Shown here piece by piece: positions 2,139 through 4,494 of a DNA stretch of 64,000 nt. The notes under the pieces were generated by a model. It was not told the origin of the DNA. It did no database searches and saw only the letters and a program-made list of their open reading frames with translations. The position numbers and the translations under genes were made by a program. The DNA is from an uncultured Gammaproteobacteria bacterium (lineage in GTDB: Bacteria; Patescibacteriota; Microgenomatia; JALYQM01), in assembly GCA_964535655.1 (NCBI GenBank), contig CAZHTP010000002.1:90054-154053 (forward strand), given 5' to 3'. How positions within the stretch are numbered: the stretch's first letter is position 1; each line of letters begins with the position of its first letter.

Positions 2139-2885
2139 TTACGGATTGTATGTAATTTTTCTTGATACATCAACGGATTTATTCCCAGCGTCATCTTTAG
2201 CATACATAGTTAGGATATTCTCACCTGGTTGTAGCTGCACTTTTTGCGAAAAACTTCCATCAGCATTAAGGATACCGCGCGATCCGTTTATGTAAACCTC
2301 GGTTGCTTCATCAGTTTTTCCTTTTACTTCGACTATTGTTTGCGATGCCCCACCAAAAGTGTCCCCGTTGTTAGGGTTACTCACATCCAACTTAGGCGCA
2401 CGAGTATCCAGGAAAACAGTATAAACAGAAGTAGATAAGCTTTTTCGACCGTTAGAATCTTTTGTATACGCTGAAAAGCTGTTAGAACCTTCTTGCATCG
2501 TGACATTGGCAAAGGTAAAGGATCCGCTATTATCGGCAATAACGGAAGGAGTTTCAGTGCCATTGAAAGTTAATTGAACAGACAATCCTGGTTCAGCTCT
2601 CCCTGTAATGGTAAGAGTTGCACTGTTGGTCGCATCAAATGGCAAAGAGTTAAAGCTCGGCCTTTGCAGTGGGATGGTAAGGTCGGTGTTCGTTTTATTC
2701 GGTACATTAGAGTTGCGTGTCGTATCCCATACATCGGCAATTTTAACCATAGCAGGAATTGCAAAATAGATAACTAGCACAATTCCAGCAAGGCAGAATA
2801 CAGAAATAATCGCAATTCGTCGAATTAAAGCTTGTTCGTGCTTTCGTGCAAGTAAATCTTTTTTGGGCATATATTGATTTTTCAT
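2139..2885 (-). CDS. Membrane-anchored protein with bacterial Ig-like/beta-sandwich repeats
   Basis: N-terminal TM helix, then repeated LTITGRAEPG...FTFANVT / VEVKGKTDEATEVYINGS-type Ig-like segments. The start is taken at an internal Met because the longest ORF (to 2897) runs into tRNA-Thr. Confidence 0.5.
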   Translation of the reverse strand: MKNQYMPKKDLLARKHEQALIRRIAIISVFCLAGIVLVIYFAIPAMVKIADVWDTTRNSNVPNKTNTDLTIPLQRPSFNSLPFDATNSATLTITGRAEPGLSVQLTFNGTETPSVIADNSGSFTFANVTMQEGSNSFSAYTKDSNGRKSLSTSVYTVFLDTRAPKLDVSNPNNGDTFGGASQTIVEVKGKTDEATEVYINGSRGILNADGSFSQKVQLQPGENILTMYAKDDAGNKSVDVSRKITYNP

Positions 2886-2891
2886 AATCTG

Positions 2892-2964
2892 AGCCACCTC
2901 CGGGACTCGAACCCGGGACCTCGGCTTTACGAAAGCCTTGCTCTACCACTAAAGCTAAGGTGGC
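2892..2964 (-). tRNA. tRNA-Thr (anticodon CGT)
   Basis: Cloverleaf read on the minus strand: GCCACCT-TA-GCTT-TAGTGGTA-GAGC-A-AGGCT-TTCGTAA-AGCCG-AGGTC-CCGGG-TTCGAGT-CCCGG-AGGTGGC-T. The 7-bp acceptor pairs, the T-loop is TTCGAGT, and the anticodon loop TTCGTAA gives CGT. Confidence 0.8.
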
Positions 2965-3422
2965 GCTCACTCGCATCAATTATACCAGTTAATATGCCAG
3001 CCTGGCCACTAAAGTAATCGTAGTATACCATCACAAAGCTGACAAGTAATGACAATCCGCACGAACTTGGTAAATTGGCCAATAATCGGTAACGACCAAA
3101 ATAGCTAACAAACTGAAATGAAGAATTCGCGTGACCATCGAGTATCTTGAACCACGCTCAAATTTCTTCTTTAAAATCTTAGTTAACTTTGGCAAACTCA
3201 AAGAATTGTATAATTGCTCCTAGATGGAACTTATTCATTTATCCCACTGCGTCTACCACTGTGATTACCACATCGTAACTCTTTTAGTGGAGCGGGAGAC
3301 GCAAACTATTTCGAACTCTCTGAACAACAGCTCTTTCAAACTCTAGCTCATTTTAGCAAACTCATGGAGTTATATCAACTTTCGAACAAGATAGATATCT
3401 TGTAAGCTCTTAATATACAATA

Positions 3423-3707
3423 TTAAGTTAACCTCTCTGTCGCTTTCAAAAATATCTCAGATTCCCTTGGATAAGTAATAAGTTCAGCAGTTTTCTCTCT
3501 TGAAAACCACCCGTGTTCAACAATCTTATCCCAGGAACCTAATTTAGCATTACCGGCAATTTCCAATAAATAGAAATGTGTTATTCCTTTTTTACCAGCG
3601 CGATCGGGTCTCGTATCGTCATATGTAAGCGTATTAATATATGAGGTGTCTCTGAATACAGACTTATCTACAGTTAAGCCAATCTCCTCATTTAGTTCCC
3701 TAACCAA
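3423..3707 (-). pseudogene. Truncated NUDIX hydrolase remnant (C-terminal ~94 aa only, TTG-initiated ORF)
   Basis: The peptide begins in the middle of the Nudix box (..VRELNEEIGL..). The frame upstream runs straight into the hicA stop codon with no Gly-rich first half of the Nudix motif, so the N-terminal ~50 aa are missing. Confidence 0.55.
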
Positions 3708-3752
3708 AGCACAGCATAAATAGTGTCGTTCATATATTGAGATAAAGTAATG

Positions 3753-3977
3753 TCATCTAGCTTCTTCTAAATCTTTAACCGTTAGTCCAGATTGTCGTAA
3801 AATCGCCCGGAGTGTTCCAGTAGGGATCGGTTTTGAGTGTACAGCTACTTGAGTCCATTTCCCATTTGGATGAGTAAGTTTTAAGTGACTGCCCTTCACG
3901 CCATTTTCTACAAAGCCTCGTTTTCTAAGAAGAGCGATGAATTTTTGCGGTTTAATATTACTAGGAATTTGCGGCAT
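3753..3977 (-). CDS. hicA: HicA-family mRNA interferase toxin (YcfA-like)
   Basis: Residues KPQKFIALLRKRGFVENGVKGSHLKLTHPNGKWTQVAVHSKPIPTGTLRAILRQSGL match the HicA fold signature (GSH..., H-x-K). The start is placed at the internal Met one nt after the hicB stop. Confidence 0.7.
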   Translation of the reverse strand: MPQIPSNIKPQKFIALLRKRGFVENGVKGSHLKLTHPNGKWTQVAVHSKPIPTGTLRAILRQSGLTVKDLEEAR

Positions 3978-3978
3978 A

Positions 3979-4251
3979 TTATAAAGCGAGTCGGACGCTG
4001 CTAGATACAAATACTTCTGCTGAAGCAATAATTTGTGTTTGAATATGATCTGTTGGTACTTCCTTGCCGTCCTTGGCTAAAGATTCAATTGCAAGTTCAA
4101 TACCATCTTTTATAGAGGAGAGTACTTCTTCGATAGTGTCACCGTAATCTACGACGTCGAGTGTTGGGCAATAGGCGTTATAGACCAAACTACCATCAGG
4201 ATAGCTCTCCGGTTCGATTATTATACGATAGTTTAATACCTGTTTATCCAT
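3979..4251 (-). CDS. hicB: HicB-family antitoxin (UPF0150/RNase H-like fold)
   Basis: MDKQVLNYRIIIEPESYPDGSLVYNAYCPTLDVVDYGDTIEEVLSSIKDGIELAIESL is a typical HicB N-terminal domain. It lies immediately upstream of hicA. Confidence 0.65.
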   Translation of the reverse strand: MDKQVLNYRIIIEPESYPDGSLVYNAYCPTLDVVDYGDTIEEVLSSIKDGIELAIESLAKDGKEVPTDHIQTQIIASAEVFVSSSVRLAL

Positions 4252-4422
4252 ACAGATATTATACCATGCTGAAAAGTGCTCTAACTCAATAATGTTTTTT
4301 ATTGATAAAAAACAAAAATAGAGCATTCAATAGAGAGTTTTGGGGAATAGCACATTGAACACCGAGATTAGCCCATTATATCAAGACATTATGCGTGTTG
4401 ATAACCAACACTTTTCATTCAG

Positions 4423-4494
4423 AGCGGAGGATGGGACTCGAACCCACGACGTCCACCTTGGGAAGGTGGCATTCTACCACTGAATTACCTCCGC
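4423..4494 (-). tRNA. tRNA-Gly (anticodon CCC)
   Basis: Minus-strand cloverleaf GCGGAGG-TA-ATTC-AGTGGTA-GAAT-G-CCACC-TTCCCAA-GGTGG-ACGTC-GTGGG-TTCGAGT-CCCAT-CCTCCGC-T. Confidence 0.8.

What the first reader, a model, noticed from the sequence alone, without database searches (positions are those of the whole stretch)
2892..4494. hicBA toxin-antitoxin pair and a decapitated NUDIX gene sandwiched between tRNA-Thr and tRNA-Gly
The TTG-initiated NUDIX fragment begins mid-Nudix-box, and its frame continues directly from the hicA stop codon. This suggests hicBA was inserted into, or displaced the 5' part of, a NUDIX gene. The 1.4-kb block sits between two tRNAs, a typical integration hotspot. Short tRNA-Gly-like fragments (tctaccactg..attacc at 3253-3269; gagcggga at 3290-3298) lie at its left edge.
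Basis: partly seen in the sequence, partly recalled or inferred. Interest (0 to 1): 0.55.

Follow-up and report, generated by a model that had tools for sequence, protein, structure and literature searches.

The report
Decaying hicBA–NUDIX islet beside tRNA-Gly
A small, horizontally exchanged DNA insert next to a tRNA-Gly gene of a Saccharibacteria-like bacterium carries an intact HicB-HicA toxin-antitoxin pair and a NUDIX gene killed by an internal 121-base deletion, not by the insertion of the toxin-antitoxin genes; this is ordinary genome-island decay.

Summary
The features are real and sit at the stated coordinates, all on the minus strand. They are tRNA-Gly(ccc), hicB (90 aa), hicA (74 aa), a 94-codon NUDIX remnant in hicA's frame, a 458-nt non-coding spacer and tRNA-Thr(cgt).

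The proposed mechanism is wrong. The native NUDIX start codon and its first seven codons (MNDTIYA) survive 19 nt after the hicA stop. A 121-nt internal, frameshifting deletion removed codons ~8-48.

Relative L001 carries the intact 143-aa NUDIX at the same site, directly after a deleted-down hicB remnant. So hicBA and an intact NUDIX once coexisted, and the two lineages decayed in opposite ways.

The hotspot idea holds. The three closest relatives have an empty site of 116-247 nt between the two tRNAs. Other relatives carry unrelated cargo there.

The window and L001 copies of the block are far more alike (dS about 0.6; neutral stretches about 87% identical) than the flanking genes, whose synonymous sites are saturated. 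This indicates horizontal exchange.

hicA is independently broken in three of four lineages, while hicB stays under strong purifying selection. The tRNA-like fragments are borderline and cannot be told from chance.

Verdict: a new member of known kinds, of low to moderate interest.

The parts
4422..4494 (-). tRNA-Gly(ccc). The variable insert begins immediately after its 3' end.
   Evidence: ARAGORN and Rfam 67.5 bits. Homology to the empty-site relatives L012, L013 and L015 stops exactly at 4422.
4339..4421 (-). Islet leader shared with L001 (87% identical) and absent from the empty-site relatives. It contains the hairpin GTGTTG-loop-CAACAC and a promoter-like site (TTATCA, 18-nt spacer, TG, TATAAT).
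4258..4266 (-). Extended -10 element TGGTATAAT, ending 6 nt before the hicB ATG. This predicts a leaderless hicBA transcript.
   Evidence: The same element at the same spacing is conserved in L009 (TGTTACAAT) and L010/L011 (TGTTATAAT), although the upstream flanks are unrelated. The function is inferred.
3979..4251 (-). hicB, a short (90 aa) HicB-family antitoxin without a DNA-binding domain. It is intact.
   Evidence: dN/dS is 0.04-0.06 against L009 and L010.
3753..3977 (-). hicA, a 74-aa HicA toxin. It is intact and keeps the conserved G-S-H motif.
3692..3733 (-). Surviving native 5' end of the NUDIX gene. It reads ATG plus codons 1-7 (MNDTIYA), then the deletion junction GCTG|TGCT, then out-of-frame codons to TAA at 3694-3692.
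   Evidence: Alignment to the intact L001 gene. Direct reading of the sequence.
3423..3707 (-). 3' two-thirds of the NUDIX gene, a pseudogene remnant. Gene callers report it as a 94-aa TTG ORF.
   Evidence: Pfam NUDIX positions 49-121 of 134. 82-83% aa and 84-85% nt identity to residues 50-143 of L001 NUDIX P0002.
2965..3422 (-). Non-coding spacer with no homologue in any relative fetched. It contains the borderline tRNA-like strings (3301-3285 and 3269-3252, which form an imperfect 13-bp hairpin). The last ~60-90 nt (about 3053-2965) hold the tRNA-Thr promoter region shared with L012.
2891..2964 (-). tRNA-Thr(cgt), the distal border of the variable slot.

Best explanation
The 1,457 nt between tRNA-Gly(ccc) and tRNA-Thr(cgt) are a small, integrase-less, horizontally exchanged islet in a Saccharibacteria-like (CPR/Patescibacteria) genome.

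Its cargo was a hicB-hicA type II toxin-antitoxin cassette followed by a 143-aa NUDIX hydrolase gene. In this lineage the NUDIX gene was later inactivated by a 121-nt internal frameshifting deletion. That deletion removed the N-terminal strands and the first half of the Nudix box but left the start codon and seven codons in place. hicBA stayed intact.

Inferred mechanism (not tested): HicA is a ribosome-independent mRNA-cleaving toxin that HicB neutralises by direct binding. The pair is probably transcribed as a leaderless mRNA from an extended -10 promoter. It acts as an addiction or stress module that can help the islet persist after its other cargo has died.

The 94-codon NUDIX ORF is a non-functional remnant. 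Its phase with hicA is incidental.
For: 1. Internal deletion. Pairwise alignment with the intact L001 gene shows the leader, ATG and codons 1-7 retained, a single 121-nt gap, then 84-85% identity to the stop. More distant homologues L006, L007 and L008 are full length at 142-143 aa.

2. Coexistence and reciprocal decay. L001 has the hicB start and about 90 nt of hicB, 88% identical and broken by several deletions. This remnant is fused to the NUDIX leader, and hicA is gone.

3. Hotspot. The site is empty in L012, L013 and L015 (233, 247 and 116 nt; GatA 79-81% identical). It holds unrelated cargo in L017 (a different NUDIX), L018 and L019.

4. Horizontal exchange. Between window and L001, flanking genes have pS of 0.75-0.92. 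LemA is 89% identical in protein yet has pS 0.915. The NUDIX 3' part has pS 0.41, and the neutral stretches are 87-88% identical.

5. hicBA identity and intactness.

6. Selection. hicB dN/dS is about 0.05. hicA is inactivated three different ways: deleted in L001, a 1-nt frameshift in L009, and an 84-nt in-frame deletion that removes the GSH motif in L010/L011.

7. Genetic code. TGA is a stop here: 3 of 36 long ORFs end in TGA.

8. Assembly. Two independent run assemblies (L004, L005) match the window 100% across the deletion.
Against: - No integrase, att repeat or other mobility gene is present, so the route of transfer is unknown. It could be homologous recombination anchored on the tRNA or a lost integrase.
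- The window's own HicB scores below the Pfam cut-off.
- The toxicity of HicA, the leaderless transcript and any stabilising role are inferences.
- The divergence contrast rests on a single pair of genomes and on short sequences (94 codons plus about 210 nt of neutral DNA).
- L004 and L005 come from sequencing runs with adjacent accession numbers, possibly the source population of the window, so they may not be independent of it.
Confidence: 0.8

Rival explanations
1. One reading: hicBA inserted into the NUDIX gene and removed or displaced its 5' part.
For: The NUDIX ORF starts mid-Nudix-box and is in phase with the hicA stop. Distant relatives L006, L007 and L008 have NUDIX only 10-18 nt after tRNA-Gly with no hicBA. 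So hicBA did at some point enter between the tRNA and NUDIX.
Against: The NUDIX leader, ATG and seven codons lie intact 19 nt downstream of hicA. The lesion is a separate internal 121-nt deletion. L001 shows a hicB remnant followed by an intact NUDIX.
Confidence: 0.03
2. Purely vertical history: the block is ancestral to the whole clade and was deleted in L012, L013 and L015. No horizontal transfer is involved.
For: The tRNA-Asp, LysM, tRNA-Gly, NUDIX order also occurs in the distant relatives L007 and L008. Deletions are clearly frequent at this locus.
Against: Neutral DNA of the block is 87-88% identical between window and L001. Synonymous sites of every flanking gene are saturated, and the inter-tRNA spacers of closer relatives cannot be aligned at all.
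Confidence: 0.12
3. The truncated NUDIX ORF is still expressed and functional. It could be a new small protein, or a HicA-NUDIX fusion made by read-through of TGA.
For: The ORF has stayed open for 94 codons and is in phase with hicA. The window branch shows no excess of amino-acid changes, with about 5 derived changes against 4 on the L001 branch.
Against: It lacks about 48 N-terminal residues, including the first half of the catalytic Nudix box. The only candidate start is a TTG, and no ribosome-binding site was looked for. TGA is used as a stop in this genome. Only contigs identical in DNA carry the ORF. The open frame is simply explained by a recent deletion.
Confidence: 0.04
4. The short tRNA-Gly-like strings at 3301-3252 are remnants of an attachment site or of decayed tRNA genes left by site-specific integration.
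For: On the same strand, 15 of 17 nt match the 3' end plus CCA of the L007 tRNA-Gly, and 16 of 18 match positions 5-22 of the resident tRNA-Gly. Only 0-4 of 100-300 shuffles reach these scores. The islet starts exactly at the tRNA-Gly 3' end.
Against: The tRNA covariance model gives no hit. Several tRNAs were tested. The strings match the resident tRNA's own 3' end poorly and have no counterpart in L001 or any other relative. The fold z-score is -1.3. A 5' tRNA fragment is not what tRNA-targeted integration leaves behind.
Confidence: 0.15

Closest known systems
HicAB type II toxin-antitoxin systems (E. coli HicAB, Burkholderia pseudomallei HicAB, Thermus TTHA1913 = PDB 1whz)
   Same: The HicA domain is full length with the conserved Gly-x-His motif. 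A small HicB N-terminal-type partner lies in the same operon, 1 nt away. The family is common in CPR genomes: 614 HicB homologues were found, and HicAB has been reported in ultra-small groundwater bacteria (PMC9938205).
   Different: The antitoxin gene comes first (hicB-hicA). HicB is only 90 aa and has no C-terminal RHH/HTH DNA-binding domain. The transcript is predicted to be leaderless. Activity is untested.
tRNA-adjacent genomic islands and integration hotspots
   Same: The insert begins exactly at a tRNA 3' end. Content is hypervariable among relatives and the closest ones have empty sites. The block is more similar between lineages than the surrounding genome.
   Different: It is tiny, 1.1-1.5 kb. 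It has no integrase and no clear direct repeat of the tRNA 3' end. It sits between two tRNA genes, and the transfer mechanism is unknown.
MutT/NUDIX hydrolase pseudogenes (Pfam PF00293)
   Same: The 3' part matches the NUDIX domain and retains REUxEExGU. Intact orthologues of 142-143 aa exist.
   Different: The copy here lacks codons ~8-48 and is frameshifted, so it is a pseudogene and not a family member in function.

Membership tests
HicA toxin (PF07927) | Full-length HicA domain scoring above the curated threshold | tested here: met
   60.5 bits against a cut-off of 27, covering model positions 3-58 of 58. PDB 1whz matches at E=1.4e-11. PHROG 353 matches at 2e-17.
HicA toxin (PF07927) | Conserved catalytic histidine (Gly-x-His motif) | tested here: met
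   KGSH aligns with KGGH of 1whz and RGSH of 9svk. The catalytic role is taken from established knowledge of the family and was not assayed.
HicA toxin (PF07927) | RNase toxicity that HicB neutralises | not testable with these tools
   Requires expression experiments.
HicB antitoxin (PF15919 HicB_lk_antitox) | Domain match above the curated threshold | tested here: inconclusive
   The window protein scores 18.7 bits, below 27. 31 of 38 homologues hit the model, best E=3.2e-5. PHROG 497 'HicB-like' matches at 9.5e-8. The best PDB hit is HicB 6g1c at E=0.14. NCBI names family members as HicB antitoxins.
HicB antitoxin (PF15919 HicB_lk_antitox) | Encoded next to hicA in one operon | tested here: met
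   There is a 1-nt gap in the window. The same pairing occurs in L009, L010 and on the contig of P0007.
HicB antitoxin (PF15919 HicB_lk_antitox) | C-terminal DNA-binding domain (RHH/HTH) for autoregulation, as in canonical long HicB | tested here: not met
   The protein is 90 aa, and only the N-terminal-type domain matches, at residues 33-74. It therefore resembles the short HicB forms.
HicB antitoxin (PF15919 HicB_lk_antitox) | Partial RNase-H-like fold | not tested
NUDIX hydrolase (PF00293) | Complete Nudix box GX5EX7REUXEEXGU within a complete domain | tested here: not met
   Only model positions 49-121 of 134 are present. The first half of the box and the N-terminal strands are deleted.
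tRNA-targeted integrative island | Integrase gene and direct repeat of the tRNA 3' end at the distal border | tested here: not met
   No integrase ORF is present. Only a borderline 14-17-nt tRNA-like string lies inside the insert, and it gets no covariance-model support.
tRNA-targeted integrative island | Presence/absence polymorphism at a tRNA 3' end, with anomalous similarity between lineages | tested here: met

The most novel reading that the evidence does not exclude
A minimal hicBA cassette, running from its -10 box to the hicA stop (about 515 nt), moves on its own among CPR genomes. Together with small cargo genes such as NUDIX hydrolases, it forms integrase-free mini-islands that home to the 3' end of tRNA-Gly(ccc). 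A second, unrelated NUDIX gene occupies the same slot in L017, which hints at a selective or mechanistic link between this slot and NUDIX genes.
Probability: 0.12. Interest if true: 0.55.

Novelty: new member of a known kind. Interest (0 to 1): 0.3.

Why it matters
**Annotation.** The 94-aa 'NUDIX' ORF, present in public protein collections as P0001, should be annotated as a pseudogene fragment. The lesion is an internal deletion, not an insertion scar.

**Biology.** The locus shows gene flux and decay in a reduced CPR genome:
- a tRNA-flanked slot whose content differs in almost every relative;
- a block shared horizontally between diverged lineages;
- reciprocal loss of its two cargoes;
- repeated independent loss of the toxin while the antitoxin stays conserved.

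None of this departs from what is known about toxin-antitoxin systems or genomic islands.

Tried and rejected
- **Alternative genetic code (TGA as sense, giving a HicA-NUDIX fusion).** Rejected because TGA ends 3 of 36 long ORFs.
- **tRNA pseudogene at 3245-3303.** Rfam found no tRNA hit, either in 4.5 kb or in 121 nt. The fold is not significant.
- **Homology of the 458-nt spacer to relatives or to the rest of the window.** None found by blastn or tblastx.
- **Phage or viral origin.** No DNA match in the phage collection and no HicB relative in viral contigs.
- **Defence-system libraries.** PADLOC gave no hit for HicA or HicB.
- **Inverted repeats flanking hicBA (pair I14) as cassette ends.** Not conserved in L009 or L010, and many such pairs occur by chance.
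- **Compositional anomaly.** None seen.
- **NUDIX paralogue elsewhere in the window.** None.
- **Excess amino-acid change in the NUDIX remnant.** None: about 5 derived changes against 4 on the L001 branch, consistent with a recent deletion.

Full report
**Observation**

All features lie on the minus strand.
- ARAGORN and Rfam find tRNA-Thr(cgt) at 2891-2964 and tRNA-Gly(ccc) at 4422-4494.
- Between them lie hicB (4251-3979, 90 aa) and hicA (3977-3753, 74 aa, starting 1 nt after the hicB stop).
- Then comes a TTG-initiated 94-codon ORF (3707-3423), followed by 458 nt without a credible gene.
- HicA is unambiguous. Pfam gives 60.5 bits against a cut-off of 27 over the whole model. PDB 1whz matches at E=1.4e-11 with the G-x-H motif aligned. 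PHROG 353 matches at 2e-17.
- HicB scores below the Pfam cut-off on its own, at 18.7 bits. It belongs to a family of 614 proteins of about 90 aa, mostly from CPR bacteria. In that family, 31 of 38 sampled members hit HicB_lk_antitox. It also hits PHROG 497 'HicB-like' at 9.5e-8.
- The 94-aa ORF matches Pfam NUDIX positions 49-121 of 134 and starts at RELNEEIGL, the second half of the Nudix box.
- Its frame is open back to the hicA TGA and in phase with it.

**What happened to NUDIX**

- A protein search found only the identical 94-aa protein and one 143-aa relative, P0002 (83% identity).
- P0002 lies on contig L001, which has the same gene order as the window: LemA, tRNA-Asp, LysM, tRNA-Gly, NUDIX, then tRNA-Thr, a Big-like gene and Wzy.
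- Aligning the two loci shows that the window keeps the NUDIX leader, the ATG at 3733-3731 and codons 1-7 (MNDTIYA; P0002 begins MNDTIYAALAII).
- A single 121-nt gap follows, with junction GCTG|TGCT. After it the sequences are 84-85% identical to the stop codon.
- Because 121 is not a multiple of three, the native frame ends after 13 codons (MNDTIYAVLWLGN*, TAA at 3694-3692). The rest of the gene falls into the frame that happens to be hicA's.
- More distant homologues (L006, L007, L008; 56% identity) are 142-143 aa. The short form is therefore the derived state.
- The remnant shows no excess of amino-acid changes, about 5 derived against 4 on the L001 branch, and it is still open. The deletion is probably recent.
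- Two run assemblies (L004, L005) are 100% identical to the window across the junction.

**hicBA did not cause the lesion**

- In L001, the stretch between tRNA-Gly and the intact NUDIX contains the hicB start (GTGGATAAACAAGTAT) and about 90 nt of hicB.
- This remnant is 88% identical to the window and is interrupted by several deletions.
- It is joined directly to the NUDIX leader, and hicA is gone.
- So hicBA and an intact NUDIX were once neighbours, and the two lineages then lost opposite halves.

**The slot is a hotspot and the block is horizontally shared**

A GatA search supplied closer relatives. The content of the interval from tRNA-Gly to tRNA-Thr in each lineage is:

| Locus | GatA identity to window | Interval length | Content |
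|---|---|---|---|
| L012 | 81% | 233 nt | no genes |
| L013 | 81% | 247 nt | no genes |
| L015 | 79% | 116 nt | no genes |
| window | n/a | 1,457 nt | hicBA plus NUDIX remnant |
| L017 | 74% | 677 nt | a different 178-aa NUDIX, starting 2 nt after the tRNA |
| L018 | 73% | 832 nt | a 259-aa ORF with no Pfam family |
| L019 | 72% | 2.9 kb | MerT-like and glycosyltransferase genes |
| L001 | 69% | 4.4 kb | hicB remnant, intact NUDIX, three further ORFs |

- In L012, L013 and L015, homology to the window stops exactly at the tRNA-Gly 3' end and resumes in the tRNA-Thr promoter region.
- Between window and L001, the flanking genes have saturated synonymous sites, with pS of 0.75-0.92. LemA shows pS 0.915 despite 89% protein identity.
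- In contrast, the NUDIX 3' part has pS 0.41 (dS about 0.59).
- The neutral stretches are 87-88% identical: the 83-nt post-tRNA leader, the hicB remnant and the NUDIX leader.
- The block from the tRNA-Gly 3' end to the NUDIX stop therefore shares a more recent ancestor than the genomes around it.
- No integrase or clear att repeat is present, so the route of transfer is unknown.

**The hicBA cassette elsewhere**

- Close hicB relatives lie next to the Big-like gene in L009 (80% aa) and L010/L011 (90% aa). Homology to the window runs only from the -10 box to the hicA stop.
- In all three lineages an extended -10 element (TGnTAnAAT) ends 6 nt before the hicB ATG. This predicts a leaderless transcript (inference).
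- hicB is under strong purifying selection, with dN/dS of 0.04-0.06 and dS of 1.4-2.6.
- hicA carries a 1-nt frameshift in L009 and an 84-nt in-frame deletion removing the GSH motif in L010/L011. It is deleted in L001.
- The window is the only one of the four lineages with both genes intact.

**tRNA-like fragments**

- The strings exist. 3301-3285 matches the 3' end plus CCA of the L007 tRNA-Gly at 15 of 17 positions. 3269-3252 matches positions 5-22 of the resident tRNA-Gly at 16 of 18 positions.
- Only 0-4 of 100-300 shuffles reach these scores, but several tRNAs were tried.
- The tRNA covariance model finds nothing.
- The hairpin the two strings form is not unusually stable, with z = -1.3.
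- No relative has counterparts.
- I leave them unexplained.

**Mechanism and verdict**

- Shown: the gene identities, the internal deletion, the presence/absence polymorphism, the contrast in divergence, and the pattern of decay.
- Inferred from knowledge of the family: HicA cleaves mRNA and is neutralised by HicB binding; the pair may stabilise the islet or serve in stress or phage responses.
- The organism is a CPR/Patescibacteria bacterium, probably Saccharibacteria-like. This rests on the record title of L006 and on the names given to the HicB and GatA relatives.
- This is a new member of known kinds, useful mainly as an annotation correction and as a clear example of islet decay.
- HicAB in ultra-small bacteria has already been reported (PMC9938205).

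Noticed in passing
L017:5797-6333 (minus strand): A different NUDIX gene occupies the same tRNA-Gly to tRNA-Thr slot in another relative, starting 2 nt after tRNA-Gly. It is 178 aa, scores Pfam 8.8e-15, and has only 25% local identity to P0002. NUDIX genes also follow tRNA-Gly by 10-18 nt in L006, L007 and L008. This is a recurrent, unexplained association.
   Followed up: partly
L009:1056-1550 (minus strand); L010:29-307; L018:409-1045: Other toxin-antitoxin modules cluster around the same neighbourhood in relatives. L009 has a second, divergent hicAB pair. L010 has an MNT-type nucleotidyltransferase. L018 has a MazE-Fic pair beside the Big-like/Wzy genes.
   Followed up: no
window 4395-4411 and L001 5826-5842: The hairpin just after tRNA-Gly keeps its 6-bp stem (GTGTTG/CAACAC) while its loop differs between window and L001 (GTTAT versus ACCGT). 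A promoter-like site scoring 10 of 12 follows it. This may be a conserved regulatory or processing element of the islet leader.
   Followed up: no
window 2139-2897 (minus strand): The mechanical GTG start of the 252-aa Big-like surface-protein ORF overlaps tRNA-Thr by 7 nt. The true start is probably the downstream ATG near 2870, since relatives have 243-255 aa.
   Followed up: no
window 3168-3211 and 3332-3375: A 44-nt direct repeat, 73% identical, flanks the tRNA-like strings inside the orphan spacer. It may be chance.
   Followed up: no
L001:6629-9778: Three ORFs (482, 417 and 93 aa) with no significant Pfam or PADLOC family fill the rest of the slot in L001. Their function is unknown.
   Followed up: partly
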